From the NCBI RefSeq assembly GCF_006345805.1, contig NC_043011.1, positions 46,698,464-46,762,463 on the forward strand: a stretch of DNA of 64,000 nucleotides, in the 5' to 3' direction. The position numbers and the translations under genes are program-made. The notes beneath the pieces were generated by a model, which saw only the letters and a program-made list of their open reading frames with translations, searched no databases and was not told the origin of the DNA. Below, piece after piece: positions 1,312 through 57,208 of the stretch. This DNA is from Octopus sinensis. Taxonomy: Eukaryota. How positions within the stretch are numbered: the stretch's first letter is position 1; every line of letters starts with the position of its first letter.

Positions 1312-1664
1312 ATAAAACATTATTGGTGAATTGAAGAAATGGAGCTGAACGCAGATTGAACAGAAATCGTTTTATTCATTCTACACGTGTTCGAAAGGCA
1401 CAAATTACCAAAATCCGATTTTGGTAATTTGTGCCTTTCGAAACACGTGTAGAATGAAATAAAACGATTTCTGTTCAATCTGCGTTCAGCTCCATTTCTT
1501 CAATTCACCAATAATGTTTTATTTCAATTATCCGCACCAACGCACTGGTTGCAACGCCAGATGGTTGTACCTCCAACCGTGCTGTTTACTGCTGTGATTT
1601 TTGCTACTAAGGTATCGGTTAAACTTTTGATTAATCTACTACAAGATTATTCATCTTTCTATTT

Positions 1665-1668
<4 letters not shown>
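1312..1668 (+). mobile_element. 5'-truncated fold-back insert (Penelope-like pLTR derivative, family HP1, copy 1) in (TA)n
   Basis: Near-perfect palindrome 1312-1522 (centre ~1417) plus unique tail to 1668, flanked by TA tracts; same sequence as 1948-2260. Confidence 0.75.
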
Positions 1669-1706
<38 letters not shown>

Positions 1707-1734
1707 TATTATTTATATTATATATTTATATACA

Positions 1735-2260
1735 TATTGGTGAATTGAAGAAATGGAGCTGAACGCAGATTGAACAAAATCGTTTTATTTCATCTACACG
1801 TGTTTCGAAAGGCACAAATTACCAAAATCCGATTGAATAATGGGACCATATTGTGTCTTTCTCTCAGGAAGAAAAAAGGAAATCCGTTGGAAAAAACAAA
1901 ACAGAACAGAGGCGGAGCAAAAACAAATCGAATTATGCTCCTAAGAGCCAACGGATTTCCTTTTTTCTTCCTGAAGAGAAAGACACAATATGGTCCCATT
2001 ATTCAATCGGATTTTGGTAATTTGTGCCTTTCGAAACACGTGTAGAATGAAATAAAACGATTTCTGTTCAATCTGCGTTCAGCTCCATTTCTTCAATTCA
2101 CCAATAATGTTTTAATTTCAATTATCCGCACCAACGCACGGTTGCAACGCCAGATGGTTGTACCTCCAACCGTGCTGTTTACTGTGTGTGATTTTTGCTA
2201 CTAAGGTATCGGTTAAACTTTTGATTAATCTACTACAAGATTATTCATTTTCTATTTCAC
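1735..2260 (+). mobile_element. Fold-back insert family HP1, copy 2 (longer), carrying a hammerhead ribozyme
   Basis: Inverted arm 1735-1890, spacer 1891-1947, forward copy 1948-2260; flanked by (TA)n. Confidence 0.78.
1965..2052 (+). ncRNA. Type I hammerhead ribozyme (predicted)
   Basis: ttcttc-CUGAAGA(1971-1977)-stem II gaaag/a/cacaa...ttgtg/c/ctttc-GAAA(2033-2036)-palindromic stem III ACACGUGU-GUA cleavage triplet (2042-2044)-gaatgaa pairing back to ttcttc. Confidence 0.75.
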
Positions 2261-2336
2261 ATAATATATATTTATATATATATATATTTATATATATATA
2301 TACATATATTTATATATATAATATATATATTTATAG

Positions 2337-2422
2337 AAATAGAAAAACAAGACAGGCGACATAAAGAACAATCCCTTCAGTAGTTGTCCACTGTTTTATC
2401 TTCTCCGCATTTTGAGCACTAA
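2337..2422 (-). mobile_element. Short pLTR-like remnant in (TA)n with decayed 3' half of a hammerhead-like motif
   Basis: Minus strand reads gctc-aaaa-tgcgg, resembling gctc-GAAA-cg in the 24925 and 28820 motifs after CpG decay; TA-flanked. Confidence 0.3.
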
Positions 2423-2472
2423 TACATGTATGTGTGTGTATAAGTATATATATGTGTGTGTGGGGGGTGTAA

Positions 2473-2510
<38 letters not shown>

Positions 2511-2772
2511 ATAAAATAATGTTACAATTACTCAATATATAAGTGTGCGTTTGTGCATATACATATATGCATATACATATATATATACACACGCACCACA
2601 CACAAGTATATATATATATAATCAAAATAAGCAGCAAGGATATCCAGAGGTAATGCAGTACGATCGTTTCATGCAACTCCATTTAATTGAACAATGCAAT
2701 CATTACATCAATTTAAAATGTAGAGCAATCTACACTTTATGTTTATATATATGTGTATATGTATGTATATAT

Positions 2773-2803
<31 letters not shown>

Positions 2804-3557
2804 CACACACAAATACATATATATATACATATATATAAACATGCATATATACAGATATATATACATACATACATATATATATATATACAGACATATATAT
2901 ATATACATACATAGTGTGTGTGTGTGTGTGCATGTATATATGTATGTATGCATGCATGTATTTATGTAAGGTTATGAGATTTTATTTAAATTGTTTAGAA
3001 TTTCAGTAGCACTTCCATATTTTAGCATGCTAAGTGATTTCCAAAATGTCTCATAGGTATCATTGACCCTTCTTGTAAAGATTCATAGAACAAATGAGAT
3101 GAGTAGGTCTCAGTCCTTAAAAGGTATCTATTGAGTGAGTAGTGAGACAAGAACAGAATATTAAACAGATTGCAATTAAACTATTCGCCGGTATAATTTA
3201 AAATTTATACAACATGTAAGAATTTGGAAATAATTGGAAAAATTAGAAAGAAGCTTCCATATTATATTATAGTTAATGAGCATCCAGTATCAAATTGCTT
3301 TAAAGAATTAATGACAAAGTATTCTATAATTTCAGCTACTGCCATTATCTTGTGCAGTACGTAATCTTCTAAATCCAAAAGAAATTGAATAAACCAGAGG
3401 AATGTTCCATGTTTTGATGGTAATTCAAGCAACATGAAATATACAGCCATTTTTCATTTAGTACATGTACATATTTCAGCACACATTGCAAAGATAGTAT
3501 TAATCTTTATGAAAAATGGAGCTAGTGCTCAGCTAGCACAATGTGTGAAAAATAACT

Positions 3558-4305
3558 TGGATGTGTGGAAAGAAGCTTGCTTCCCAACCACATGATTCTG
3601 GGTTCAGTTCCAGTATGTGAAACCTAGAGCAAATGTCTTCTACTATAGTCTTGAGCAGACTAAATGCTTGCGAATGGATTAGGTAGATAGAATCTGAAAG
3701 AAGCCTATTATATATATATATATATATATAAATTGTCCAACCCATGCTAGCATAGAAAACGGACGTTAAAAGATGATGATGAAATTCTATAATTATGAGT
3801 ATAATTATGATTAGGGTTCAGCAAAATTTGCTTCACCTCATCCTGAAATTTAGAAATAGCAGTTAAACTACTTTTTTACTACCATAATATATCTCCCTAA
3901 TTATAATTATACTCATAATTATTGAATTTTTGTTTAAGTTTACCAATAATGGTTCTTTTAACGTGCAGAACTACTTGGTAAAATTATTAATTATTAATTA
4001 ATTAATTAATTAATTTTACCCTTTATATATATATATATATATGTGTGTGTGTGGTGTGTGTGTGTGTGGTGTGTGTGCGTGTGCTTGTGTCTATGTTCAT
4101 TACCCACCACTGCTTGATATCCAGTATTGGTTTGTTAATGTCCTTGCAACTTAGCAGTTCAGCAAAAGATACTGATAAAATAAGTTGCATGCTTTACAAC
4201 AATAAAAGAAAAAGTATTGTGCTTTATTCATTTGGATAAAAGTTCTTGAAGGCAGTGACCCAGCATGGCCACAGTCAAATGACTGAAACAGGTAAAAGTG
4301 TAAAG
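3558..4305 (+). mobile_element. SINE-A (tRNA-derived, bipartite with internal TA/TG microsatellite), interrupted by inserts at 3733-4023
   Basis: Head 3558-3708 (A/B-box-like tgtgtgg...ggttcagttcc); second half 4045-4305 ending cagcatggccacagtcaaatgactgaaac. Confidence 0.8.
3782..4023 (+). mobile_element. Fold-back insert family HP2
   Basis: Arms 3782-3816 and 3895-3929; 3' tail ends ttttaccctt then (TA)n; homologous to 25173-25490 (minus). Confidence 0.6.
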
Positions 4306-4336
4306 GGTATTCAATTTTTTTAAGGCTCTAGAATAT

Positions 4337-4735
4337 TCTTCTCTACTTCTGGCACAAGGCCTGAAATTTTTTGGGCAGGGGCTCAGTCGATTAGATTGAT
4401 CCTGGTATGCAACTGGTACTTAATTTATCAACCCCGAAAGAATGAAAGGCAACGTCAACCTCAGCGGAATTTGAACTCTGAACATAAAGACAGATGAAAT
4501 ACTGCTAAGCATTTCACCCAGCATGCTAACAAGGAACTAGAATATTTTTTTCTACTCTAGACACAAGGTCCGAAATTTTGGGTGATGGGGCCAGTTGATT
4601 AGATTGACCCCAGCACATAACTAGTATTTAATTTATCAACCCCAAAAGGATGAAAGGCAAAGTTGACGGAATTTGAACTCAGAACATAAAGACAGACGAA
4701 ATACCATCAAGTATTTTGCCCAGAGTGTTAACAAG
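4337..4735 (-). mobile_element. Two tandem SINE-B copies (4337-4532, 4547-4735)
   Basis: Reverse complement of ggcgagctggcagaa...gagttcaaattccgccgaggtcgactttgcctttcatcctttcggggtcgataaattaagtaccag core. Confidence 0.8.
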
Positions 4736-5157
4736 GATCTAGAATACTACAAACCAGACCTATCACTACTAGTGGCTGAAAGAATACAATATTTTGCCAT
4801 TAATTCCTTAAACTGATATTGGGGATTCATGAAATGGATTTCTGACATAGAACTTCTGAATAATTCTCCAAATTATTTATTTCCCCCCCTGAATTATTAC
4901 AGATAATAGATAACAAAAACTGTAGCAGCTAACACGTGAATTTGGAATATGTTGATATTTTGACATTATATCTATTTTTGTATCACCAAGGACATTGTTA
5001 ATGCAATAGAAACCTGAAGAATGAGATCCAATTACATCGTATGTATGTATGTAGTACGGATGTATGTATGTGTATGTATGTATATATACATATATATATA
5101 TATACATACATATTTGTATAATATACATACATATATATATATATATATATACATATA

Positions 5158-5218
<61 letters not shown>

Positions 5219-5867
5219 GCATATATATATGTATATACATATAATATGTATAGGCAGTGATATGTGTATATGTGTTTAGATATGTGTGTGCATTTGCATG
5301 TACGCATGAATGTGTGTGTATGCATGTCTATGAGTCTGACTGTTATGTATATTTGAAATATGATGAACTTATTGTATACAACACTCAAGTTCATACCTAT
5401 ACATACACACACAAACACATGCATATATATATACATTTATGCATACTTGTGGATGTGCGCATTATGTATGCATGCATTTTCCTCGTATTTATCAGCATCA
5501 TTGATTTAGCATTCACTTTGTTAGGCATGCATCGTTCCGGTGAAATTCATCGGTCCATTTTCAATAGAATCCATAAGCCAGAAGAATGCATGCACTGGTA
5601 CGTTTCTCAATAGAATGGGTATATTAAAACTTATAACATGTAGTATCATGCCAAGATCCATTTAAGCCAATTTTACCCATCAGTTTCAAAGAAAAGTTAG
5701 GTGATAACCCAGGATGGTGCCTGTAAAGAAGGACTGATTGAGAGTTGTCACCATACTTTTCATACCAGTCCCTCTGATGTGTGCTGTCTTAGGTTATCAC
5801 CTCAATCAAATTGTATGAAATGTATTGTGTATGTGTGTAAATATATATATAATAATAATAATGAAAT

Positions 5868-6235
5868 TATTGTATACAGTGCTCAGGTGCACCACAACTT
5901 GTCAGAAAGTGCGTATAAAGTATATGCAGTAATGTACAAATGTCTGGAAAGCGAACAATGTATGAGTCAGATACATGCTTGTGTGTGTATGGAGGGGAGG
6001 AAATCAGGTGTAGTGTTGGCGAATCTCAGAAAGCATGGATGTTTTGAAGGATGCAGTGCTCCGACAACTAACAACTGATGTTGGCAGTTTGTTCCATGCT
6101 TCAGCAACTCTCAGCGTGAAAAAATGTTTCCTATAGTCATGGGAGCTGTGCTGTTTTCTGACTTTGTAAATATGTCCACGGGTGTTAGAGTGGGTGGAGT
6201 GGAGTTGAAAAGGTTGCTCAGAGTTATTGTTTGTA
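5868..6235 (-). pseudogene. CR1-clade LINE 3' end (ORF2 C-terminus + 3' UTR + (ATT)n tail)
   Basis: Translation SNTRGHIYKVRKQHSSHDYRKHFFTLRVAEAWNKLPTSVV matches the CR1 ORF2 terminal TRGH..K...FF..RV...WN.LP motif; second copy at 18775. Confidence 0.85.
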
Positions 6236-6253
6236 AGATATATATATATATAC

Positions 6254-6309
<56 letters not shown>

Positions 6310-6314
<5 letters not shown>

Positions 6315-6465
6315 CTCTCCTAGTTTCTCTCCTTGTTTTTTCTGTGTCCCTTTCTGTAGGCTCGAAACATAAAAGACTTTTTCTATTCCTGAGCATTACA
6401 CTAATACATCTGTTTGTTTTGTACACCACCTGTCTTCGTCTTTTGTTTTTTTCATAAACTCTCCC
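6310..6465 (+). mobile_element. Single-arm copy of the HP5 pLTR-like family (see 24690-25060) in (TA)n
   Basis: tttctg-taggctcgaaacataaaagact...cacctgtcttcgtcttttg matches the 24925-25049 arm, with a deletion in the hammerhead core. Confidence 0.65.
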
Positions 6466-6466
6466 T

Positions 6467-6511
<45 letters not shown>

Positions 6512-6584
6512 CAGGGTGCGATGTATAAATTGTTGCCATTTTATATTTTTAATTTCCCATATGTGCATTGTTTGTTTTTGAAGA

Positions 6585-6838: not shown

Positions 6839-6842
<4 letters not shown>
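6585..6842 (-). mobile_element. Mariner-type transposon 5' fragment (TIR + transposase N-terminal HTH)
   Basis: Minus strand starts tatcatgctggtgcaaaggtaat (mariner TIR-like); ATG at 6670 gives MFIPSKCHIRHVLLYGFHEGVNASTAAKS, like mariner transposase N-termini; truncated. Confidence 0.7.
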
Positions 6843-7195: not shown

Positions 7196-7391
7196 ATTCT
7201 GTTTTGTCTGGGGAGAGTCATTTTCTTTTTGTGCCTTATAATGTAACTCACTCACCGGTAAAATTTCCACTTTTTTCTTATTTTTATTTTCCTAAAATTT
7301 TCGTTGCGTCTTGCAAGTGGAAATTTTACCGGTGAGTGTGTTACATTATAAGGCACAAAAAGAAAATGACTCTCCCCAGACACAACAGAAT
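7196..7391. repeat. Inverted repeat, ~77-bp arms, ~42-bp spacer (fold-back insert or MITE)
   Basis: 7196-7272 is the reverse complement of 7315-7391 with few mismatches. Confidence 0.8.
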
Positions 7392-7776
7392 ATGCTTCAA
7401 CACACGAACTCATATAAAGAATCTTGCAAACCAAATCCAAAAACGAAATACAATAAAAGATGTTTTTAAATAAATATAATTTATTAATATGTCCATTCCT
7501 ATTAGTGTACATTTAAAGGTTGAACATGTGTCCCTTAAAATAAGCAGCTTTAAGTGGTATTTTATCTATGAAATTCTGACTGGCTGATGGGACACTTATG
7601 ATATATGTGTATGCATGTGAAGAATTTAAAAGAAAAATATTTTTGCTATCTACAAGTCTGTTGTTAGATTCTTCAAATAGACATTTTCAACAATTTCTAT
7701 TTGAGTTAGTCACCATCCCAAATTAAAAGAATTACATTATTTCTTCGACTTTTCTTATGTATCATTATCATTATTA

Positions 7777-9065: not shown

Positions 9066-9810
9066 GGTGGTAAGTAGCTTGCTTATGAACCACATGGTTC
9101 CAGTTTCAGTCCCATTGCGTGGCACCTTGGGCAAGTGTCTTCTACTATAGCCTCGGGCCGACCAAAGCCTTGTGGGTGGATTTGGTAGACGGAAACTGAA
9201 TGGAGCCCGTTGTATATATGTATATGTATACATGTGTGTGTGTGTCTGAGTTTGTCTCCCCAACATCGGTTGACAACTGATGCTTGTGGGTTTACGTCTC
9301 CGTAACTTAGCGGTTCAGCAAAAGAGACTGATGGAATAAGTACTAGTCTTACAAAGAATAAGTTCTGGGGTCGATTAGCTCGACTAAAGGAGGTGCTCCA
9401 GCATGGCCACAGTCAAATGACTGAAACAAGTAGAAGAGTAAAAGAGTATGTAGGCTGTGTGGTAAGAAGTTTGTTTCCCAATCACATGGTTCTGGGTTCA
9501 GTGCCACAGTGTGGCACCAAGGGCAAATGTCTTCTACTAAAGCCAGATAAATGTATTTGGTAGATGAAAAGTGAAAGAAGTTTGTTGCATGTATGTATCG
9601 ATACGTGTGTGAGTTGACCCATACTATCTCACGAAAGATGTTCATGTATTTTGCACACTCGTAACTTAACAGTTTCACTAAAGAGAACGATAGAATAAGT
9701 GCCAAGCTTTAAAAGAATAAGTACCGGGGTCAATTTGTTTGACAACCCCTTTGAGGTGATACCCCAGCATGGCTGCTGTCCAATGATAGAAAGAAGTATT
9801 AAAGATAAAA
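9066..9810 (+). mobile_element. Two tandem SINE-A copies (9066-9447; diverged 9449-9810)
   Basis: Match to SINE-A head (ggtaagtagcttgctt...ggttccagtttcagtccc) and tail (ggtgctccagcatggccacagtcaaatgactgaaacaag). Confidence 0.85.
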
Positions 9811-10150: not shown

Positions 10151-10457
10151 ATGTAGGGAAGATGTTGCTGTAGATAACACTTAATGTCAACACACTGAAG
10201 GAAAATGAACCAGAAAAAAAATGTATGCAACAAGGACCATCTTCATAGCTTTAGGGATGATTCTGTGATCAATGACATCAGAAGACACTGTTATAACAAT
10301 GAAAGGCATCAATAATGTTGAAGAAGAGATCTTGACACTGGGGAAACAACAAAGCATATGCGTGTGTGTGTATGTGTGTGTGTCTGCGCACATGTGTATG
10401 TGTACAAATATACATATATGTATGTGTGAGTGTATGTGTGTGTATGTGTATGTATAT

Positions 10458-10893
10458 ACTCTTTTACACATTTATCTGTTTCAGTCATTTGGCTGTGGCC
10501 AGGATGGAGCACCGCCTTTTAGTCGGGCAAATCGACCCCCCAGGACTTATTCTTTTCGTAAGCCTAGTACTTATTCTATCGGTCTCTTTTGCCGAACCGC
10601 TAAGTTACAGGGACATAAACACACCAGCTTCGGTTGTCAAGTGATGTTGTGGGGACAAACACAGACACACAAACACATACACACGCACACATACATATAT
10701 ATATATAAATATATATACATATATATATACGACGTGCTTCTTTCAGTTTCCGTCTACCAAATCCACTCACAAGGCTTTGGTCGGCCTGAGGCTATAGTGG
10801 AAGACACTTGCCCAAGGTGCCACACAGTGGGATTGAACCCAAAACCATGTGGTTCGTAAGCAAGCTACTTACCACACAGCCGCTCTTATGCCT
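10458..10893 (-). mobile_element. SINE-A, full length
   Basis: Reverse complement of both halves with internal TA/CA tract. Confidence 0.9.
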
Positions 10894-14653: not shown

Positions 14654-14692
<39 letters not shown>

Positions 14693-14695
<3 letters not shown>

Positions 14696-14858
14696 AAACA
14701 AGTCAAAATAGAAAATGCTAAAATAATTTTATAAAGAACATTTCAGTACCGGTTTCGGTCATTTTGAGACCTTTTCAACTGTAACGATTAAATAATTAAA
14801 TTTAGAAAAATTAGAAGAAAAGTTTTTTTAAAGGAATATTTCTGCCTTTCTCTCTCTC
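14693..14858 (-). mobile_element. pLTR-like insert in (TA)n carrying a minimal hammerhead
   Basis: Unique 165-bp island between long TA tracts containing the fold at 14741-14784. Confidence 0.6.
14741..14784 (-). ncRNA. Minimal type I hammerhead ribozyme with U3-A8 core variant (predicted)
   Basis: Minus strand: ttacag-UUGAAAA-ggtc(tcaaaat)gacc-GAAA-ccgg-UA-ctgaaa; stems I (cag/ctg), II (ggtc/gacc) and palindromic III (ACCGGU) all pair. Confidence 0.65.
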
Positions 14859-14865
14859 TATATAG

Positions 14866-15380: not shown

Positions 15381-15381
15381 G

Positions 15382-15643
15382 CCAATTAAGGACTGAACAC
15401 GAAAAGGTGGACAGTCAACATGCTAGATATAGACGTCAAATCGCCATTCTCCACAAGGATTATGTTCTCATAATCCTTGTGGAGAATGGCGATTTGACGT
15501 CTATATCTAGCATGTTGACTGTCCACCTTTTCGTGTTCAGTCCTTAATTGGTATATAAAATATTTTAATCTTCGGATCTTTTTAATGTGCTAGACCACTG
15601 GTTTTAATTGACTAATATCAATTTCTACCCTTAATTTTTAAAT
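15382..15643 (+). mobile_element. Fold-back insert family HP3 in (TA)n
   Basis: Perfect palindrome 15382-15551 (83-bp arms, 4-nt loop ttct) plus tail ending tagaccactggtt...ttctacccttaatt. Confidence 0.75.
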
Positions 15644-15644
15644 A

Positions 15645-17753: not shown

Positions 17754-18125
17754 TGCATAGACAAGGGTGTGAATACATATAAGTATACAGAAAGAAATGA
17801 GCAAATGTGCAAATATATAAATGGGTGTGCAGGTACCAGTTCTTATGGCTGTTTCTGCCAAGAGGCAACAAAATTTTGCTGCCTCTTGGCAGAAACGGCA
17901 ATAAGGAACTTGTACTTGCACACCCATTTATATTTTTGCTCATTTGCTTCTATATACTTATATGTATTCACACCCTTGTCGATGCAGTTCCCCAGCTTTT
18001 CCCACTCGCTAATCTGTATAAAGCATACCTGTGTGTGAATTCATCCTTTACAATGGAATAAATAGACGTACTTGAATGTTTACTGGATCATGTCTGTTGA
18101 ATTTATATCCTCTCCATTTTTTATC

Positions 18126-18130
<5 letters not shown>
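17754..18130 (+). mobile_element. Older fold-back insert (HP4) with truncated hammerhead-like 3' half
   Basis: Imperfect palindrome 17754-17986 centred on aaaatttt (~17873); right arm starts tgcc-tctt-ggca-GAAAC; tail runs into (TA)n. Confidence 0.55.
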
Positions 18131-18740: not shown

Positions 18741-18774
<34 letters not shown>

Positions 18775-18775
<1 letters not shown>

Positions 18776-19095
18776 TGTGTACAGTGCTCAGGTGCACTAC
18801 AACTCATCTAAAGTGTATATATAATCAGGTGTAGTTTCGGCGGATTTCGGAAAGCATGAGGGCCTTAAAAGATGCAGTGTCATGGCAGTCAACAACTGAT
18901 GCAGGCAGTTTATTCCATGCTTCAGCAACTCTGAGCGTGAAAAAATGTTTCCGAAAGTCATGGGAGCTGTGTTGTTTTCTGACTTTGTAGGCATGTCCAC
19001 GTGTGTTAGACACATGGAGATCAAAAAGGTGTTCAGTGTTGTTGTTGGTGAGGTGGTTGATAACTTTGTGGGTGTTTACCAAGTCCGTCGCCAAA
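18775..19095 (-). pseudogene. CR1-clade LINE 3' end
   Basis: DLVNTHKVINHL...SNTRGHAYKVRKQHSSHDFRKHFFTLRVAEAWNKLPASVV followed by (ATT)n tail. Confidence 0.85.
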
Positions 19096-19318
19096 TAGAT
19101 GGAGTAATACACGCCATATATTGATGACATGTTACTAGTCTGTTAGCATGGTTACAGCTTTCGTAAATGGGGCGGGGTCAAGCTGACTTACAACAGAAAA
19201 AAAAAAAAACAGGTAAAATTAAATAAATTGAAAGGTAGCACTTTAAATTGTCTTGATTATTAGTTTGTGTCCTGAATAATAAAAACATTTGTTGTGTGAC
19301 TTGTGAAATCTGTGCTAT

Positions 19319-19730
19319 GGGTGCAGGAGTGGCTGTGTGGTAAGTAGCTTGCTTACCAACCACATGGTTCCGGGTTCCGGGTTCAGTCCCACTGCGTGGC
19401 ACCTTGGACAAGTCTATTCTACTATAGCTTCGGGCCGACCAAAGCCTTGTGAGTGGATTTGGTAGACGGAAACTGAAAGAAGCCCATCGTATATATGTAT
19501 ATATGTGTGCATGTATGTTTGTGTGAGTTTGTCCCCTCAGCATTGCTTGACAACCGATGCTGGTGTGTTTATGTCCCCGTCACTTAGCGGTTCGGCAAAA
19601 GAGACCGATAGAATAAGTACTGGGTTTACAAAGAATAAGTCCCGGGGTCGAGTTGCTCGACTAAAGGCGGTGCTCCAGCATGGCCGCAGTCAACTGACTG
19701 AAACAAGTAAAAGAGTAAAAGAGTAAAGAG
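19319..19730 (+). mobile_element. SINE-A, full length
   Basis: Both halves intact; ggttccg duplicated in the B-box region. Confidence 0.9.
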
Positions 19731-22710: not shown

Positions 22711-23212
22711 AAATGCCCTGAAGTAGTACCAGACAGTCGCCCTCGTGGCTTCTGATCTTAACTGATTGGAAGTGTTATCACGTACATTGTTTTGTCTTGG
22801 TATAAAAGATGGGCTACAGCAAATATTCTGCTCAATACCAGATTTGTTTCTCAGTTGTTTGACCTTAACCATTTGACCATATCCCTTGGTGGCTGACGAT
22901 ATGTGCATCTCTGATCATGAGCAGAAGTAGTGGGGGAGCATCATAGCCATGTGTTGAAAGGAGTTTGGGTGGAGGTTGAATAATTCACTTTTGGAAACAT
23001 GGGTGGTTCATTCAACATCTTTAAACATTCCTTATTCAGGGACCATTTGAGCGGGATGGGATACTTGACCAGAAGAAAATTCTAACTGGGCCCCACCTGC
23101 AAGGTCATGCGCTATTTATCTTGATATGACATCACCATGTTGTAGACACATGGTTGTGATGCATGTGCCTAGTGTACCCTTAACAGATGGGTAGTCATGA
23201 TGAGTATACTCA
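22711..23212. mobile_element. ~520-bp non-coding element flanked by (AAT)n, copy 1
   Basis: Homologous to 47061-47592 and 53958-54496; both ends abut AAT arrays. Confidence 0.8.
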
Positions 23213-23221
23213 ATAATAATA

Positions 23222-23265
<44 letters not shown>

Positions 23266-23269
23266 TATT

Positions 23270-23936
23270 ATGTGGAGAATATGTGGAGATGGACAAGAAA
23301 CAATAAATCATATTATCTCTAGCTGCCCAGTCCTGGCTAAGAAGGAATATATTCACAGACATGACAGAGTTGGAACCTACATACATTGGAAGCTATGCCA
23401 ACATTATGGAATAACAACAGAAAAAAGATGGTATAGGCACACACCAGAAAAGGTCACAGAAAACGAGAAAGCAACCATACTCTGGGATATGCCGATACAC
23501 ACAGATAGAGAAATTAAGGCCAACAGACCAGATATAGTTGTCAGAGATCATGAAGAAAAAAAATGCTTTCTAATTGATGTATCAATACCGGCAGATGACA
23601 ACGTGTCTCTAAAAGAAATGGAGAAACTCTCAAAATACAAAGACCTGGAAATAGAGGTAACTCGAATGTGGAACCTGAAAACAGAAACAATTCCTATCAT
23701 AGTAGGTGCATTAGGCATGATAAAAAAATATTCAGACAAATACATAACAAAAACACCAGGACTTACAAACACATATAACATACAGAAAATTGCACTACTA
23801 GGCACTGCACACATCCTACGCAGAACACTTTCCATACAATAACCATCAGAGCATCACAACAAATCACAGCACATACCCAAGGCACACAGAGCTGCGCTCG
23901 GTAGTGAAGTGAAAGCACGCTATAAAAATAAAACTA

Positions 23937-24411: not shown

Positions 24412-24570
24412 AAAACATACTGTCCCATGATAGTAAGATCAACAAAAAAGTACTCCAACTGGTGAAAGATAAATATTATTTAATGGAAAAAATGCATGTT
24501 TTATGTGCTACCAATGGTTTCATATATAGAGAAACACTTCAAATATATTCATCAAGCAGAACCCCACCCG
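24412..24570 (-). mobile_element. pLTR-like insert in (TA)n with hammerhead fold
   Basis: TA-flanked unique island containing the motif at 24506-24558. Confidence 0.5.
24506..24558 (-). ncRNA. Hammerhead ribozyme-like fold (U3 variant)
   Basis: Minus strand: tgc-UUGAUGA-atatat(15 nt)atatat-GAAA-ccattgg-UA-gca. Confidence 0.55.
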
Positions 24571-24689
24571 TATATATATATATATCCAGCGGTAATCTGG
24601 ATAGAGTACTGGCATGTAGATGAAAATATGCAAGTTCAAAGAGCAGGATATTATTAAGGCAGGATAAAACTGGTGTGACTACGTGAGTG

Positions 24690-25056
24690 TATAATATCTA
24701 GTTGAAATTTATAGAAAAACAAAAGATGAAGACAGGTGTATTAGTTTGACGCTCAGGAAAATGAAAAAGTCTTTTACGTTTTGAACCTATGCTCTTCAAC
24801 AGAAGGAATAAGAGAAAACAAACAGAGATAGAATGGAAAACAAATTGTAGACTTAATGGTCAAGCATGGCAACTGCTATATCTACAAGTGTTTTGTCATT
24901 CTCTCTGTCTATTATCTCTTATTCCTTTCTGTTGAAGAGCGTAGGCTCAAAACGTAAAAGACTTCTTTATTTTCCCGAGCTTCAAACTAATACACCTGCT
25001 TGTTGTTCATATACCTGTTTTTGTCTTTTGTTTTTCTATAAATTTTAACGATATAT

Positions 25057-25060
<4 letters not shown>
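24690..25060. mobile_element. Fold-back insert family HP5 (two diverged inverted arms, each with a hammerhead-like motif)
   Basis: 24701-24850 is approximately the reverse complement of 24880-25049; right arm cttt-CTGTTGA-a-gagc(gtag)gctc-aaaa-cgta-aaag. Confidence 0.7.
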
Positions 25061-25662: not shown

Positions 25663-26409
25663 CTATACACATGCATACTTACATAGACACATAAACAAGC
25701 AAGCACATACGCACACATATATATATGAATACCCAGTGGTGTAAGATGGTGTTTCAGTGTTCCATACTTAAGATTTATCATACAACCATAAAGTATTTCA
25801 AGCAAAAAAAATCATAATTAATTTTCCCTAATTGCTAATTTTAATGGTTATAGCTACACTTTGATGTTTTTTTTTAAACTTCAGCTACAAGTCCAGAGGT
25901 TCAATTACACAGAGTCTAAAGCTCAGAGGAGAATCTTCGACACAGAGCTACCTACCTCATTTTTCCGTCTTCATTTCAAGTTAATTAAATTGCCTACGTT
26001 AATTGAAAATATATGCGACAAATGTGAGTATTGCAACAAAAAAATTAAACAAGTAAAGGAAACCAAAAAAAAAAAAAATTTAACATTGAGTTAATTAAGC
26101 ATTTGCATACAAATTACCATTTTTGGAAATGGTTTTTCTTCACATCCTTGAACAGCTTATAACATTATCACATGCTTTGTTATGGTTTATTTTTACTAAA
26201 GCAGGAGTTAAGATGTAACTGTGTTGTTAAAGAAGTTTGCTTCACAACCATGCTGTTCTAGGTTTGAAAATAAGGAGAATAAAGCCTCCCTTAACTGAGA
26301 AACAGATAGGAGTTGACAATCTGGGTGTAAAGCAATGCATTAATGATAAACTTGCCTAACTTATGCTAGAAAGGAAAATCACACATTACAACAAAATCAG
26401 TGTATGTAT

Positions 26410-26629
26410 ACTCTTTTACTCTTTTACTTGTTTCAGTCATTTGACTGCGGCCATGCTGGAGCACCGCCTTTAGTCGAGAAAATCGACCCCGAGACTTATT
26501 CTTTGTAAGCCCAGTACTTATTCTATCGGTCTCTTTTGCCGAACTGCTAAGTTATGGGGACGTAAACACACCAGCATCGGTTGTCAAGCAATGCTAGGGG
26601 GACAAACACAGACACACAAACACACACAC

Positions 26630-26667
<38 letters not shown>

Positions 26668-26833
26668 TACGACAGGCTTCTTTCAGTTTCCGTCTACCAA
26701 ATCCACTCACAAGGCATTGGTCGGCCCGGGGCTATAGCAGAAGACACTTACCCAAGATGCCATGCAGTGGGACTGAACCCGGAACCATGTGGTTGGTTAG
26801 CAAGCTACTTACCACACAGCCACTCCTGCGCCT
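26410..26833 (-). mobile_element. SINE-A, full length
   Basis: Reverse complement of both halves. Confidence 0.9.
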
Positions 26834-26959
26834 ATGTATGTCATTATTCAGTTTTATTTCAAGATTTCTTGCCAACAGAGAAAGAACAGGTTTCTAACTT
26901 AGATCCAAAGCTCCTTCATTAGAATTTCAACATCAACAACAGGGCATTTGTTTGTTTAT

Positions 26960-32660: not shown

Positions 32661-32676
32661 TTTTTTTGTGAAAGAT

Positions 32677-33093
32677 AGGCGCAGGAGTGGCTGTGTGGTA
32701 AGTAGCTTGTTTACCAACCACATGGTTCCGGGTTCAGTCCCACTGCGTGACACCTTGGGCAAGTGTCTTCTATTATAGCCTCGGGCAGACCAAAGCCTTG
32801 TGAGTGGATTTGGTAGACGGAAACTGAAAGAAGCCCGTCGTATATATGTATATATGTATAGACATGTGTGTGTTTGTGTGAGTGTGTTTGTCCCCCTAGC
32901 ATTGCTGGACAACCGATGCTGGTGTGTTTATGTACCCGTTACTTAGCGGTTCGGCAAAAGAGACCGATAGAATAAGTACTGGGCTTACAAAAGAATAAGT
33001 CCCGGGGTCGAGTTCCTCGATTAAAGGTGGTACTCCAGCATGGCTGCAGTCAAATGACTGAAACAAGTAAAAGAGAGAAAAAGAGAGTAAAGA
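32677..33093 (+). mobile_element. SINE-A, full length
   Basis: Both halves intact. Confidence 0.9.
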
Positions 33094-33132
33094 GATAGTT
33101 GACCATTTGCTTGGAACTACGTTAGCTATTGT

Positions 33133-40748: not shown

Positions 40749-40793
40749 ACAGACATATATTTGAAAAAAGTTTTCCTAAAATAAAAAATTATT

Positions 40794-40997
40794 AACGTAA
40801 GGGGTATCAGCCATCTGAATGTGGCTAGCCACTGGGGGGGGGGGTGTTACTGATGCTTTTAGCCCCAGGCGATCAATGTCATCGCCTGGGGCTAAAAGCA
40901 TCAGTAACCCCCCCCCCCAGTGGCTAGCCACATTCAGATGGCTGATACCCCTTACGTTGTCGAGCGGTTACTGTTTATATCTCGTTCAGAGATTTAT
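40794..40997 (+). mobile_element. Fold-back insert (HP6) with 14-bp TSD
   Basis: Near-perfect palindrome 40794-40958 plus ~40-bp tail; direct repeat taaaaaattattaa at 40782-40795 and 40998-41011. Confidence 0.8.
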
Positions 40998-41485
40998 TAA
41001 AAAATTATTAATTATATAAGAATATCTTATAAAACCCAGAATGACAGACATCTTTTGGAAAGAAGCATTCATGTTTAAGGACTTTTCCTGATTACAGCTT
41101 TTCAAACAGAAGTGTTATTGGGGAATAATGTATAAAGGAGAATCGGTTTTGGGAACAGAGTTTACTATTTCCTGTTTAGTTTCAGATTTAGAATTTGTAT
41201 AAAGTATTCTTCTGTTGCCTTTTGAAGTTGAGTAGCCATTGTAACGATTGACAAGACCCTTTATAAGGACATGGTCTTAGAACAAATGAATGACCAGCAT
41301 TTCTACAAAAACAAAAATAGGAACCAATATGCTGAAACAAACAATGAACAAGATTGGTAAATTAATGGACAAATTCAAAAAATAACTTCACAGAAAAGAA
41401 GTTGGATTACCCGATCAATTATGAGGTAAAAAAACAAATGACTTTTATGGATTACAGAAAATTCATAAATCTAAAGGATTTCAGT

Positions 41486-47060: not shown

Positions 47061-47061
<1 letters not shown>

Positions 47062-47592
47062 CTCTCATGGCTTCTGATCTTAACTGATTGGAAGTGTTAT
47101 CATGTACATTGTTTTGTCTTGGTTTAAAAGACGGGCTACAGCAAATATTCTGCTCAATACCACAGATTTGCTTGTCAGTTGTTTGACCGTAACCAGTTGA
47201 CCATGTCCATTAGTGGCTGACGATATGTGCATCTCTGATCACGAGCAGAAGTAGTGGAGGAACATCATAGCCATGTGCTGAGAGGGATTCTTTGGGGCTT
47301 GAATAATTCACCTCTGGAAACATGAGTGTTTCGTTCAACATCTTTAAACAATCCTTATTCAGGGACCTTTTGAGTAGGATGGGTTACTTGACCAGAAGAA
47401 AATTCTAACTGGGCCCCCACCTGCAAGGTCATGTGCTGTTTATCTTGATATGAGATCACCATGTCGTGCACATATGGCTGTGATGCATGTGCCTAGTGTG
47501 CACTTATCAGACAGGTAGTCATGATTAGTATACTGGGCTTCGTATATTTTACCCCAGAGTCACTTTGATGGTATGCACTGCTCTCTCACTCA
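47061..47592. mobile_element. ~520-bp AAT-flanked element, copy 2
   Basis: Homologous to 22711 and 53958; (AAT)n on both sides. Confidence 0.82.
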
Positions 47593-51118: not shown

Positions 51119-51184
51119 AATAATTATAATACTAGTGATGATGATGATGATGATAATATAATAATAATAATAATAATAATAATA

Positions 51185-51545
51185 GTAAGCAATGCTGGAT
51201 CATAGGTATAGAATGCCTAGCTGACAACAAGGTATGTGAGGAAAGAAAAGACGATAGATATGACAGGTTAGCTTGGGAGGTTAAGCAGTTGTGGTCGTTG
51301 AAAATGGTGGTAGTAGTACCAATAATTGTTGGAGCCCAGGGAACAGTGAGTAAAAATCTTGAGAAGTACATGGAATAAACAGGGGCTGCAATAAGGGTGG
51401 AGCATTTGCAGAAAACAGCACTGCTTGGAACCACATGAATACTCTGGATGGTGCTCGAAAAATAAGAGGTGTTATCTTAGTTCACTGGTAGTGAACAACT
51501 AACACCATAGTACATCTCCAGTGTCAGAAACTGTGCAAAGGCAAC
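51185..51545 (+). pseudogene. R4/Dong-type RLE C-terminal fragment + 3' UTR
   Basis: KQCWII...RYDRLAWEVKQLWSLKMVVVVPIIVGAQGTVSKNLEKY...LQKTALLGT; in (AAT)n. Confidence 0.8.
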
Positions 51546-51574
51546 AATAATAATAATGATGATAATAATAATAA

Positions 51575-52300
51575 TGAGATTGAAACTATAGACCACCTAA
51601 TCTCAGGATGTAGAGTCTTAGCACCTGTAGAATATAAAGCAAGACATGACAGAGTCAGTCAGTATTTACACGTGACAATATGTCAGCGTTATAAAAGGAA
51701 AACCGCTGACAAATGGTATAAACACCATCTTAGAGCTGTGATCGAGGGAGAAAATGTGCTGATTCTATGGGACTTCCCCGTACATACCGACAAAACTATA
51801 AAAGCTAATAAACCGGATATTATTATAAAAGATCAGACAAAAAAGGTGTGTTTATTAATTGACATGAGTATTCTTTGCAATCACAATATAGCGGCGAAAG
51901 AATTTGACAAAATCAGTAAATATAAAGACTTGCTAATAGAAATTGAAAAACTGTGGCATCTCAAGGTGACTAAAGTACCAGTGATTGTAGGATCTCTAGG
52001 AATGATAAAAAAAGGTACTGAAACCTATTTGAAAATGATACCAGGCTTACCATCCCTGCAGGAAGTGTAAACAATCGTGTTAACTAGAATGACTCATGTA
52101 CTGAGAAGAGCATTATCACTGTGAAAATAACATCCATTCATGAATTTATTTATTTATTAATTTTTTAAAAAATACATATTTTATCTGTGAATTTGCATGT
52201 ATAATCTGGGTATGCATTAAATGAGCTTCTCTACTCTAGGTGTACGGAAAACACATGGCAAGAAATGGAACAAAATTTGCAGAAAGAAGGAAAAAAAATA
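51575..52300 (+). pseudogene. R4/Dong-type 3' fragment (zinc knuckle remnant + RLE)
   Basis: ETIDHLISGC..LA..EYKARHD...ILWDFPVHTDKTIKANKPDIII...LLIDMSI...KISKYKDL; in (AAT)n. Confidence 0.88.
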
Positions 52301-52607
52301 ATAATGAGGTTACTTTCTTACAGAGAAAATCACAAATTTTGGGCTAGGGAACAGTCAATGATAATGACTCCTGTATTTGAGTTGCACTTTTACTTATTGA
52401 CTTCAAAAGACAAATTTGCCTGTTGCTTGATTTGAATTCAGCCTAATAAAGAACTGGACCAAATACTGCAAGACATTTCCTCTGCAGTTCTAACAATTCT
52501 TCCCAGCTAAGATCAATAATATTTAAAAATAATAATAATAACAATAATTTTAATAACGACAACTACTACAACAGTAATAACAGCAACAACAACAATAATA
52601 ATAAAAG

Positions 52608-53705
52608 CTTGTCATCGAAGAAGCGAGTCTAAGTAAAAGCAATCCAAGGCCAGTATTTTCCATGGGTTGACAGAGAGGAAGTGAGCCTAAGTAAAAGCCA
52701 AGAATGGCTCAGAGGCTTTGGACTAAAAGCAGAAACAGAAGGACTGATTCTTGCTGCACAAGACCAATGTCTGACCATAAACAACTTTAAAAGCAAAATA
52801 AAGAAAACAAGCCCTAACATCAAATGCAGAATGTGTCACCAGCACAATGAGACAGTTGACCACATCAGCTGTGGTTGTCCAGTTCTTGCCAATGCTAAAT
52901 ATATATATACAGACACAACTAAATAAGTAGTTATATTCATTGGACAATATGCTAAAACTATAACAAAAACTAACAAGAAATGGTATAAACATGTGCCAAA
53001 ACAATGACCAGGCCACAATCATTTAGGCTATGCCTGCTCAAATTGTCAAAGAAATAAAAGCTAATCACCCAGACATAATAATCAAGGATTAAAAAAAGGG
53101 CCTGTTTACTAATGGATGCTGCATTCCTTTCTGTACAAAAAGAAGTGGAGAATTGTCAAAGTACAAAGACTTTGAAATTGAAGTATTCAAGACGTGGGGA
53201 ATGAAGGGGAAAGCAATACCTGTAATAATTGGAGCATTGGGTATGATAAAAGTCATATGCACAAAAATGTAGAAGCTATACCTAGACCATTACAACTACA
53301 CACTATCCAAAAAAATAGCCCTGCTAGGAACAGCCCACATCCTTACACAAGATACTATTAGTTTAATAATACAACCCAAACAAAACAATCCACAAAGACA
53401 AGACACACTCTGTACAGTAAATATCCAATAAAATAAACAGCCATCACAACATGTACTCCACAGACCGGATATCCACCAGAAGAACACAACTCACATTACA
53501 TACACAATACACAATACGAACATTGATATAACAAAAGACTGCAACCAAACTCTGTAGCAAAACAAACAGATGTAATAATACAATACTAAGAAGAGTTTGC
53601 ACTCCCCCAACAATAAAAGAAGTACACAAAAGACTGCACACACCTCAGCAACACAGAGGTGTAACAGGTAATGCAGTACAAATGTGCCTGAAACTATCAA
53701 ATGTT
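52608..53705 (+). pseudogene. R4/Dong-type 3' fragment, frameshifted, with long 3' UTR
   Basis: WLRGFGLKAETEGLILAAQDQ...KCRMCHQHNETVDHISCGCPVLA...KANHPDIII...KYKDFEIE...QKIALLGTAHIL; AAT-flanked. Confidence 0.88.
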
Positions 53706-53921
53706 GAATAATAAGAATAAGAATAAGAATAGTTTAAAATGTCGGTACAGGGCCTGCAATTTGAGGGAAAGGTTTAAGTTGACATCATTGACACCAGTGT
53801 TCCACTGTTACTTATTTTATCGACCTTGAATTAATGAAATGCTAAGTCGACCTTAATGGAATTTGAACACAAAATGAAAAGACAGATGAAATGCCATTAG
53901 TGATTCTACCATGTCAACATC

Positions 53922-53957
<36 letters not shown>

Positions 53958-53960
<3 letters not shown>

Positions 53961-54495
53961 GCCCTGTTGTGAGTACCAGGCAGTGGCTCTCATGGCTTCT
54001 GATTGGAAGTGTTATCATGTACATTATTTTGTCTTGGTATAAAAGATGGGCTACAGCAAAATATTCTGCTCAAATTCATAGATTTGCTGGAACTTAACCA
54101 GTTGACAATGTCTCTTAGTGGCTGATGACATGTGCATATCTGATCACAAGCAGAAGTAGTGGGGGAGCATCATAACCATGTGCTGAGAGGAATTCTTCGG
54201 GGTTTAGATAAGTCACCTTTGGAAATATGGGTGTTTTGTCCAACATCCTTAAACAACCCTTATTTAGGGACCTTTTGAGTGGGATGGGCTACTCAACCTG
54301 AAGAAAATTCTATCTGGGCCCCACCTGCAAGGTCATGTTCTATTTATCTTGATATGAGATCACCATGTCATGCACATATGGTTGTAATGCATATGCTTGG
54401 TGTGCCCTTATCAGACGGGTAGTCATGATGGGTATACTGGGCTTCATATATTTTACCCCAGTGTCACTTTGATGGTATGCACTGCTCTCTCACTC

Positions 54496-54496
<1 letters not shown>
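53958..54496. mobile_element. ~520-bp AAT-flanked element, copy 3 (both ends present)
   Basis: aaatgccctg...tgcactgctctctcactc between (AAT)n arrays. Confidence 0.82.
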
Positions 54497-54556
<60 letters not shown>

Positions 54557-55459
54557 GTAATAATAATAATAAAATGAAGAAAATAAATTATCAGAATGAT
54601 ATTGTTTAATTAAATAAAATTTCTTGACAGAATATTTTATTCCAAAATCAAAACCAGAAAATACGTAAAAAGTCAGATAAAATAACAATGAAATGGTAAA
54701 ACAGCAAATTCCATTATATTTTTGACTGTATTGATCTAAATTTCCATCAATAATTTTCCACTTGAACTGATTTTACCTCTTTTCTCCTCTCCTTGCCCCA
54801 CTTTCAAACCACTGCACCATCCGCGACCTAAATCCCCCACCACCATCCCCTGCCGTATCATAATCATCAACAGCATCATTGTCATCATTACCGTCATCTT
54901 CATCATCATCATCACTGCTTTTTCTTTTTTTTTTCAATAATCACCGCTCCACCAATGCCACAGCTACCATAATCACCCACCACCATCACCACCTCAATTA
55001 CCATTGCTCTTACTACCGCCTCTGCCACTATCACCACACCAGGTATCACCACAGTACTGTCACTGCCAAAAACACCATTACCATTTCCATCACTATTACC
55101 ACCACCACCACCACCACCACCACCACTACTATCACCATCGCTACAGTCTTTAATGAAACCTCCCCCACCTCACTGCAACCACCATCATGATCACCACCAC
55201 TACTTCTGCCACTGTAATCAAAAATACCACCACCACCACCACTGCTGCCACCGCCACCGCCACCACCACTACCCTGTCACCGCCTTCACTGCAACATACC
55301 GACACTCTCCTATTAGATTATTCATGAATTACTGTAGAGTTCTTAGAATATGGATGAAACCATGCTATCTTACCATTTTACCATTCTGGTTAATCATATT
55401 AAAGCAGCTTAAATTACATTCCTTAACAACGTTGAGATATATCTACAGAATACGGCCTT

Positions 55460-55652
55460 AGAAGAAACAATAATAATAATAACAAAAACAACAGCAACAA
55501 CAAAAACAAAAGCAATAATAACAACAACAACAACAATAATAATAATAATAATTATAATAATAATAATAATGATAATAATAATAATAATAATAATGATAAT
55601 AATAATAATGATAATAATAATAATAATAATGATAATAATAATAATAATAATG

Positions 55653-55695
<43 letters not shown>

Positions 55696-55715
55696 AGATG
55701 ATGATGGTGATAACG
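55460..55715. repeat. (AAC)/(AAT)n microsatellite
   Basis: Visible. Confidence 0.9.
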
Positions 55716-56294
55716 AAGAAGTTACTGATGACAGAAATCATTCTTGTGATTATCAATATTTATGTGTATAATGCTATGTGTGTGTGTGTATATGTAAATG
55801 TATATATGTATATATATATCTGTGATTGTATATGTGCATATTTGAGAAATAAGAAAGAAAAAGAATTAAATCTTTTATTTTATTTCATTTTTTAATTATG
55901 CAAAAAAAGATGTTTTGAAAGGAATTTTAAATTTTGTTGATTTTATATGAATCTATTTTTCAAGATACAAAATAAATGCCTTTATTTTATCATAGAATGT
56001 ATTTCTACCTAAGAAAAAAAAAACAAAAAACAAAACAAAAGAAAAACAAATAATAAAGATAAATAATAAATAAAAAATAAAATCATTAATGATATTGTTT
56101 TATTACATTTAAGTATTAAGAAGATTATATTAAAAATTAAAATTGATGAAACCAAACCAGATTTTCATCATAGGAATGGAATAAACAAAAAAAATAGCGT
56201 TAAAACCAAAGTGAAATTTTCTTCGGTATGACAACAGCTTAGCATTAACCTTATAAAAACGGAACTAATACTAAAGCGCAGAGAAAACTTATAC

Positions 56295-56332
<38 letters not shown>

Positions 56333-56665
56333 GCACCCACACACACATACACATACAACCACATATTTATGTGTGTGTTTGTGCATATATACAAACTGAT
56401 ATCTCATTTATTCTCTCTTACTTGTTTCAGTCATTTGACTGCAGCCATGCTGGAGCACCGCCTTTAGTCGAGCAAATCGACCCCAGGACTTATTCTTTGT
56501 AAGCCTAGTATTTATTCTATTGGTCTCTTTTGCTGAATCACTAAGTTACGAAGACGTAAACACACCAGCATCGGTTGTCAAGCAATGCTGGGGGGACAAA
56601 CACAGACACACAAACATATACACACACATACATACATATATATATATATATATACATATATATAT

Positions 56666-56943
56666 TTATTAATCAATATAAGGGTAGCAAAAAATTCAAG
56701 AAAAATTCAAGAAAAATTTTCTGCAACCAGCGGTCAAGTGAGAAAGTAGAAATAGTCACAGACTATATAATATATTCAACAATAGTATTAAGGAATGACC
56801 CTGACAGGCCGTTCAACTCACTTGAAAAGAGCAGCTAAACTCAAACCGCAAAATAGTAGTAATTCTGAAACTAAAGGAGTTTAGCTGCTCTTTTCAAGTG
56901 AGTTGAACGGCCTGTCAGGGTCATTCCTTAATACTATTGTTGA

Positions 56944-56945
<2 letters not shown>
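56666..56945 (-). mobile_element. Fold-back insert (HP7)
   Basis: Arms ~56771-56842 and 56878-56948; minus-strand tail ttgaccgctggtt...tgctacccttatattgattaat. Confidence 0.72.
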
Positions 56946-56973
<28 letters not shown>

Positions 56974-56981
<8 letters not shown>

Positions 56982-57208
56982 TAATTAAGGGCTAAAGAGG
57001 GTTATTCTAAAGCCAATACACTGATTTATCCACTTATAAGTGGATTATAAGTGGATAAATCAGTGTATTAGCTTTAGAATAACCCTCTTTAGCCCTTAAT
57101 TATATGATGTTTATACTTCAACCGTAACGGTTTTTTTAAATATACTGCCCACGCTTCCTGATGGATTCCTTTTCTGTAGAGAAAGGGACTTCATCCTATA
57201 TTGCTAGT
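56974..57208 (+). mobile_element. Fold-back insert (HP8)
   Basis: Palindrome 56974-57110 plus ~100-bp tail; TA-flanked. Confidence 0.72.

What the first reader, a model, noticed from the sequence alone, without database searches (positions are those of the whole stretch)
1312..57208. System-level: diverse ribozyme-bearing fold-back retroelement derivatives colonising (TA)n tracts
Seen: about 10 mutually divergent short inserts (1312, 1735, 3782, 15382, 17754, 24690, 40794, 56666, 56974, possibly 7196) share one architecture: an inverted duplicate of the truncated 5' part, then a forward copy with a unique 3' tail, usually inside (TA)n. Hammerhead folds or remnants occur in several of these and in related single-arm inserts. 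Established: Penelope-like elements (PLEs) leave inverted or partial pseudo-LTRs, carry minimal hammerheads with a palindromic helix III, and some clades favour microsatellites. Inference: these are a radiation of PLE pLTR or retrozyme-like non-autonomous families, possibly not catalogued in cephalopods.
Basis: partly seen in the sequence, partly recalled or inferred. Interest (0 to 1): 0.8.

Follow-up and report, generated by a model that had tools for sequence, protein, structure and literature searches.

The report
Ribozyme repeats carrying Penelope insertion footprints
Ten fold-back inserts are truncated copies of nine repeat families, among them an intact Penelope-like retrotransposon and five short tandem units with a predicted hammerhead ribozyme and no long reading frame, and their shared two-ended footprint suggests these short units are likely moved by Penelope-type enzymes.

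Summary
The fold-backs are real: ten inserts, nine multicopy families. Family A (1312, 1735) is the 3' end of a young, intact Hydra-clade Penelope-like element (PLE): 895-aa RT plus GIY-YIG-type endonuclease, pseudo-LTR, hammerhead. Family I (24690) runs into a Neptune-like RT/endonuclease in one copy. B, C, D, E and F (56974, 15382, 40794, 56666, 3782) come from 355-540-nt head-to-tail units, each with its own hammerhead and palindromic helix III: non-LTR retrozymes. G and H are unresolved. Two-armed insertions pair one tailed end with one tail-less end at a fixed site (64 of 66 in A-E; 16 of 16 in an unbiased G sample), are flanked by 10-14-bp target duplications where visible, and have variable, microhomology-rich apexes. 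This is the published PLE footprint, and Hydra and Naiad PLEs are already listed for Octopus. Most window copies have lost the ribozyme: only one of ten has it whole. New in my searches: retrozymes showing the PLE footprint, which is direct genomic evidence for a partnership so far argued from phylogeny and co-occurrence. The partner enzyme was not found; reads and expression are untested.

The parts
1313..1667 (+). Family A (Hydra-clade PLE) 3' fragment: inverted arm 1313-1420, forward arm 1412-1667, tail about 1520-1667; apex at a natural hairpin inside hammerhead stem II; in (TA)n
1735..2262 (+). Family A, second insertion: inverted arm 1735-1949, forward arm 1948-2262 (2-nt microhomology), in (TA)n
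1971..2044 (+). Whole type I hammerhead of family A (core CUGAAGA, long stem II, palindromic helix III ACACGUGU); activity untested
3782..4025 (+). Family F, older (80-95% to other copies): fragment of a ~540-nt tandem unit whose hammerhead was seen in one long copy (L124)
7196..7450 (+). Family G: fold-back plus ~60-nt tail, 12-bp target duplication with one mismatch; no frame or hammerhead found in ~360 nt
15381..15640 (+). Family C: fragment of a 505-nt tandem hammerhead unit; tail about 84 nt; in (TA)n
17754..18130 (+). Family H, old (77-91%): fold-back plus ~144-nt tail; longer copies hold a half hammerhead; source element unresolved
24690..25060 (+). Family I, old: two decayed arms with a minimal hammerhead remnant (24929-24956); one copy (L253) runs 5' into RT and endonuclease frames
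40794..40999 (+). Family D: fragment of a 355-nt tandem hammerhead unit; tail about 42 nt; 14-bp target duplication at 40782-40795 and 40998-41011
56666..56945 (-). Family E: fragment of a ~490-nt tandem hammerhead unit; tail 56666-56763 (about 97 nt); in (TA)n
56975..57208 (+). Family B: fragment of a 492-nt tandem hammerhead unit; tail 57116-57208 (93 nt); shares a (TA)n tract with E
24413..24575 (-). Single-arm insert in (TA)n with a whole hammerhead (24555-24509), helix III like that of published Hydra-1_Obim; family not searched
14691..14860 (-). Single-arm insert with hammerhead remnant (14778-14747); 95% over 150 nt to a stretch downstream of a Neptune-like endonuclease frame in L250
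6313..6465 (+). Single-arm relative of family I, hammerhead partly deleted, in (TA)n

Best explanation
The ten fold-backs are truncated insertions of nine repeat families, likely written by Penelope-like RT-endonuclease proteins that would nick both strands of AT-rich DNA and copy RNA inward from both nicks, starting at two fixed sites in the RNA. Shown: the families, the frames, the tandem units, the two fixed ends, one of each per insertion, the target duplications and the variable apexes. Inferred: a protein dimer nicks the two strands 10-14 bp apart; one subunit starts at the outer site (tailed arm), the other 42-150 nt further in (tail-less arm); both cDNAs stop early and join through short complementarity, giving a head-to-head pair. 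The five short units would be copied in trans from tandem or circular RNA, because arms read through the ribozyme site and across unit borders. The hammerheads are predicted to work as dimers through palindromic helix III and probably process the RNA without defining insertion ends.
For: A: L209 has inverted tail-less copy + pseudo-LTR + 895-aa frame + tailed 3' end; 150 of 150 scored RT matches at 90-100%. B-E: seamless tandem units of 355-505 nt, longest ATG frame 60 codons or less (the B unit used there lacked its tail); one hammerhead per unit in A-E, 0 of 300 shuffles each. End pairing: 68 of 94 distinct A-E loci are two-armed; of 66 not cut by a locus edge, 64 pair a tailed with a tail-less end, 2 are complex, 0 have two tails. 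G with an interior query: 16 of 16 two-armed copies have exactly one tail (9 left, 7 right) while single arms split 7 tailed to 6 tail-less. D duplications of 10-14 bp in 8 of 13 two-armed loci, the window's read by eye. Apex overlap >=2 nt in 35 of 68 against 17.5% by chance. In vitro a PLE protein nicks and extends both strands and starts at two RNA sites that delimit the tail (PMC11167929).
Against: No partner enzyme found for B-F: no similarity to A or to the other PLE 3' ends I held. A-E queries contained the tail, so tail-less/tail-less pairs could not be sampled there. One F copy (L114, 1 of 20) has two tails. The in vitro paper saw no difference in start site between strands, so it does not explain the strict pairing. 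Tails here are 42-150 nt against 30-40 nt in print. 16 of 68 apexes have gaps or extra bases, and overlaps are BLAST-end estimates. G shows neither frame nor ribozyme; H is unresolved; I rests on one copy. D has a U3-G8 core and I a U at position 6, so cleavage is uncertain.
Confidence: 0.7

Rival explanations
1. Same PLE machinery, but the inverted arm comes from one template folding back and self-priming, and the endonuclease then resolves the intermediate asymmetrically, leaving a tail on one side.
For: Proposed for rotifer Penelopes (PMC3846280) and for the tail (PMC8557442). It explains one tail per insertion without coupling two enzymes. 4 of 18 two-armed A copies share one apex at a natural hairpin.
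Against: Arms are often unequal, separated by long non-palindromic spacers, and either arm can be the longer or span several units. Single arms end at either site about equally. Both strands are extended in vitro.
Confidence: 0.2
2. The short units B-F are moved by a LINE (twin priming) and only resemble PLE insertions.
For: No PLE partner was found; LINEs were named as candidates in PMC7229834; LINE fragments are present in the window.
Against: LINE twin priming (recalled) gives non-overlapping arms and a variable internal site; here arms duplicate each other from a fixed site exactly as in family A. No poly(A) or short-repeat tail is shared with a LINE in the units printed.
Confidence: 0.05
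3. The fold-backs are MITEs or foldback DNA transposons with terminal inverted repeats.
For: G copies are short, have long inverted repeats and 10-13-bp duplications.
Against: The inverted repeat is not terminal (tail on one side), apexes differ from copy to copy, single arms are common (13 of 29 in G), and A encodes RT + endonuclease.
Confidence: 0.03
4. The palindromes are sequencing or assembly fold-backs.
For: The assembly has many small indels inside copies; raw-read support is untested.
Against: Arms stop at family-specific sites, flanks are not mirrored, target duplications frame the whole two-armed unit, and old copies show arm-to-arm decay (75-85%).
Confidence: 0.02

Closest known systems
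Hydra-clade PLEs, including Hydra-1_Obim (Craig et al. 2021, PMC8557442)
   Same: C-terminal endonuclease, DKT motif, no CCHH, CxxC and CxH around the conserved E and N, hammerhead in the 3' end, (TA)n targets, inverted 5' copy and one-sided tail.
   Different: Family A is longer (unit about 3.66 kb against under 3 kb), has RWL for RWK, has lost the CxCX5C linker, carries a long low-complexity linker and a ~148-nt tail; its hammerhead differs from the one listed for Hydra-1_Obim.
Non-LTR retrozymes (Cervera and de la Pena 2020, PMC7229834; Li et al. 2026 preprint 10.64898/2026.07.22.740005)
   Same: Short AT-rich head-to-tail units, one type I hammerhead each, no long frame, dispersed monomers to oligomers, coexisting with PLEs.
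   Different: Units B, C, E, F (490-540 nt) exceed the 170-400 nt RNAs of the 2020 paper (within the 51-972 bp of the preprint); hammerheads have long helix III palindromes; insertions carry the PLE inverted arm and tail, which neither text mentions by term search; no homology to a PLE pseudo-LTR was found here; RNA is untested.
Poseidon of Anolis, PAc (Frangieh et al. 2024, PMC11167929)
   Same: Two RT start sites delimiting a tail, AT-rich nicking on both strands, templates read through the hammerhead.
   Different: Different clade; tail 30-40 nt; no strand difference in start site in vitro, whereas genomic pairs here are strictly one of each.
Neptune-clade PLEs
   Same: L253 RT and endonuclease motifs and the Cys-rich endonucleases in L249/L250 look Neptune-like (motif-to-clade assignment partly recalled).
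   Different: Frames are decayed; no tree against reference sequences was made.

Membership tests
EN+ PLE (family A) | Single frame with RT and C-terminal GIY-YIG-type endonuclease | tested here: met
   895-aa frame with MGS and YRDD RT motifs and VY..YVG endonuclease core, aligned to 12 homologs; Pfam gave no significant family, homologs often carry PF26215
EN+ PLE (family A) | Partial tandem forming a pseudo-LTR, inverted 5'-truncated copy, tail at one end | tested here: met
   L209, L208, L216; 18 of 20 loci two-armed
EN+ PLE (family A) | Hammerhead in the pseudo-LTR | tested here: met
   stem II pairs kept through changes in subfamilies L213, L214
Hydra clade (family A) | DKT in place of DKG; CCHH absent; CxxC and CxH around E and N; (TA)n targets | tested here: met
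   against the definitions read; (TA)n at 20 of 20 3' ends
Hydra clade (family A) | RWK motif | tested here: inconclusive
   RWL at the aligned place
Hydra clade (family A) | CxCX5C linker and length under 3 kb | tested here: not met
   one Cys left at the aligned place; unit about 3.66 kb. A second family in the genome matches a query holding the linker
Hydra clade (family A) | Placement in the RT tree with reference Hydra proteins | not tested
   reference proteins were seen only in a supplement; so A is Hydra-type by motif, a divergent member at best
Non-LTR retrozyme (B-F) | Head-to-tail units of a few hundred bp, each with a type I hammerhead | tested here: met
   B-E; F from one copy, core with one change
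Non-LTR retrozyme (B-F) | No protein, no LTR | tested here: met
   longest ATG frame 37-60 codons in B-E; Hydra and one Neptune-like query hit only three flanks, none inside a unit
Non-LTR retrozyme (B-F) | Self-cleavage and abundant linear and circular RNA | not testable with these tools
   dimer folds are more stable than two monomers for C, D, E, a prediction only
Neptune clade (family I) | RT + endonuclease with CX2-5CxxC and CCHH | tested here: inconclusive
   L253 has RT and endonuclease motifs but decayed Cys motifs; one copy; link to the 3' end shared with L252 for only 394 nt
MITE / foldback DNA transposon (G) | Fixed terminal inverted repeats | tested here: not met
   one-sided tail, variable apex, 13 of 29 single-armed

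The most novel reading that the evidence does not exclude
A guild of unrelated hammerhead circles parasitises one PLE enzyme through a short shared start signal (CCTWW just upstream of 8 of 10 start sites in B-F, absent at both sites of A), and each insertion is built by an asymmetric dimer copying two RNA molecules, possibly held together by the ribozyme's own palindromic helix III, with one start site assigned to each DNA strand.
Probability: 0.25. Interest if true: 0.7.

Novelty: new member of a known kind. Interest (0 to 1): 0.42.

Why it matters
Which enzyme moves animal retrozymes has been argued from shared ribozymes, co-occurrence and trees. Here five retrozyme families leave the same integration footprint as an intact PLE in the same genome, which is a direct genomic argument. 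The strict one-tail-per-insertion rule, with target duplications and apex microhomology, constrains how PLE inverted repeats form, a step still unexplained, and young intact Hydra-type frames make it testable in vitro. For annotation, such short fold-backs can be mistaken for MITEs, SINEs or miRNA hairpins.

Tried and rejected
Rfam: only sub-threshold miRNA hairpin matches, taken as artefacts of palindromes and microsatellites. First hammerhead scans missed real motifs because stem II was capped too short. Pfam did not recognise the A frame or its pieces; PDB sequence search gave 0. My first recalled label, Nematis, was dropped after the motif test. Search for a partner of B-F: a second Hydra-type family (30 loci) gave no match to the window over the stretch tested (empty BLAST output ended the script) or to the units; PLE fragments in flanks gave none either. 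No pile-up of 5' ends at the predicted cleavage site in B-D; five E copies end 8-12 nt downstream of it (read by eye). The 5865-6237 and 18770-19052 inserts are LINE-type 3' ends by a recalled motif, not part of this. Sequencing runs: no RNA holder listed; no reads were laid, so raw-read support stays open. Earlier findings of the scan: none. Dfam and Repbase could not be searched.
Full report
Observation. The window is AT-rich, microsatellite-laden animal DNA without N. It lies in G000, contig C15. All ten fold-backs exist. They belong to nine families: A (1312, 1735), B (56974), C (15382), D (40794), E (56666, minus strand), F (3782), G (7196), H (17754), I (24690). Each query gave 40 or more places; first-look candidates ran from 88 to 2767 and only 40 were scored, so these are lower bounds and biased to the closest copies. 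A-E are young (94-100%), F-I older (77-97%).

Family A is an autonomous PLE. Extending copies 5' gave RT and endonuclease pieces. A 100-aa RT query gave 150 of 150 scored matches at 90-100%, with open frames up to 923 aa. Of 12 loci chosen for long frames, 11 had an RT frame over 500 aa; L209 shows an inverted tail-less copy, a pseudo-LTR, an 895-aa frame and a tailed 3' end. The protein has DKT, no CCHH, and CxxC and CxH around the conserved E and N, the marks Craig et al. give for the Hydra clade. It has lost the CxCX5C linker and is longer than described members; no tree was made. Its hammerhead (window 1971-2044) keeps stem II through paired changes in subfamilies.

Families B-F are short tandem ribozyme units. 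B (492 nt), C (505), D (355) and E (about 490) occur as seamless head-to-tail arrays with no ATG frame over 60 codons. Each has one type I hammerhead about 215-256 nt upstream of the 3' end, with a helix III that is its own complement; 0 of 300 shuffles of each unit gave such a motif. C, D and E fold more stably as dimers. F shows a 538-nt unit and a hammerhead with one core change in one long copy; the strict scan missed it. The units are not alignable with each other or with A. G has no frame or ribozyme in the roughly 360 nt recovered. H has a half hammerhead in longer copies. One I copy runs into RT and endonuclease frames that look Neptune-like.

The footprint. After dropping 6 duplicate rows of 100, 68 of 94 A-E loci are two-armed. 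Of the 66 not cut by a locus edge, 64 have one end at the family's 3' site and the other at a fixed inner site (about -148 to -156 in A, -93 in B, -84 in C, -42 in D, -97 in E; two E arms stop further in), 2 are complex and none has two tails. These queries held the tail, so no-tail pairs could not appear. For G an interior query avoided this: among 29 distinct loci, 16 two-armed copies all had exactly one tail (9 left, 7 right), while 13 single arms split 7 to 6; independent use of the sites would give this with odds of about 1 in 65,000. One of the 16 is the query's own locus. One F copy of 20 has two tails. Where the target is not a microsatellite, duplications of 10-14 bp frame the whole unit (D; G: by eye). 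Apex overlaps are 2 nt or more in 35 of 68 and 5 nt or more in 14 of 68, against 17.5% and under 1% by chance; 16 of 68 have gaps. (TA)n of 10 nt or more follows the 3' end in A 20/20, B 16/20, C 14/20, D 6/20, E 16/20, F 10/20, G 2/15, H 10/15, I 9/15, against 7-8% background (duplicates included). CCTWW lies within 32 nt upstream of 8 of 10 start sites in B-F and of neither in A; the motif was picked by eye, so its 1 in 20,000 control is optimistic.

Mechanism. PLE-type origin for the set: about 0.93. The two-nick, two-start model: about 0.7. In vitro, a PLE protein nicks and extends both strands, starts at two RNA sites that delimit the tail, is predicted to be a dimer and uses uncleaved RNA. 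Two cDNAs, one from each site, truncated and annealed at short complementary stretches, give the observed head-to-head pair. Arms cross the ribozyme site and unit borders, so the template must be tandem or circular RNA; these two cannot be told apart here. Self-priming on one template remains the main rival.

What is known. The inverted copy and one-sided tail are standard PLE anatomy (PMC8557442, passages; PMC3846280, passages; PMC8969392, passages). Hydra and Naiad families are listed for Octopus (supplement rows). PLEs are counted in cephalopod repeat surveys without the word ribozyme (PMC13282606 and PMC8967140, passages). Palindromic helix III and dimer action are described (PMC4209133, passages). 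Retrozymes are known from coral, mussel and axolotl, with PLEs proposed as partners (PMC7229834, passages). A 2026 preprint supports this by co-occurrence and trees, mainly in vertebrates, and does not use the words tail or cephalopod (parts 1-3 of 5 read; term search). PMC11167929 was read in parts 1-2 of 4; PMC10886601 (passages) was irrelevant. Seven searches showed no paper on cephalopod retrozymes or on retrozymes with PLE inverted arms; the library lacks most subscription papers, Dfam, Repbase and preprint supplements.

Verdict. Real, mostly ordinary PLE debris; new members of known kinds. The useful new point is the footprint shared by retrozymes and an intact PLE, and the strict pairing of start sites. 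Interest 0.42.

Noticed in passing
L053/L057 (family C array): The inverted arm holds a 222-nt shortened unit, lacking the hammerhead, repeated twice with the same deletion junction, next to full units; it could be rolling-circle copying of a deleted circle or a copy of an older array.
   Followed up: no
L218-L247: A second young Hydra-type family with frames up to about 766 aa, a ~1.2-kb 3' UTR and a minimal hammerhead-like motif just before the (TA)n end.
   Followed up: partly
L248:367-2050: A third Hydra-type family (about 64% identical to A in the RT thumb) inserted in the (TA)n tract right behind a B insertion; PLE-type inserts stack in the same tracts, as B and E do at window 56666-57208.
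   Followed up: partly
L207, L211-L214: Family A has subfamilies 80-92% identical at the 3' end, four of these five with long open frames, suggesting several lineages active together.
   Followed up: partly
window 3808-3817 and F copies: The F inner start region contains a telomere-like TTAGGG on one strand; B, C, D and E have looser versions of the same word near their start sites.
   Followed up: partly
window 2321-2479, 2621-2740, 5434-5841: Further short unique inserts between (TA)n tracts; the first has a partial hammerhead-like core on the minus strand by eye.
   Followed up: no
window 9067-9450, 10457-10885, 19317-19730, 26409-26835, 32675-33094, 61274-61700 and others: An abundant ~400-bp repeat in both orientations accounts for most other inverted pairs in the window; SINE-like by appearance.
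   Followed up: no
window 22715-23839, 47061-47591, 51157-52923, 53961-54495: Fragments of a non-LTR retrotransposon with a restriction-like endonuclease (recalled motif) beside (AAT)n tracts.
   Followed up: no
L268, L270, L271, L273 (family G): Four longest G copies begin near the same CA-rich word about 360 nt from the 3' end, which may be a true 5' end.
   Followed up: partly
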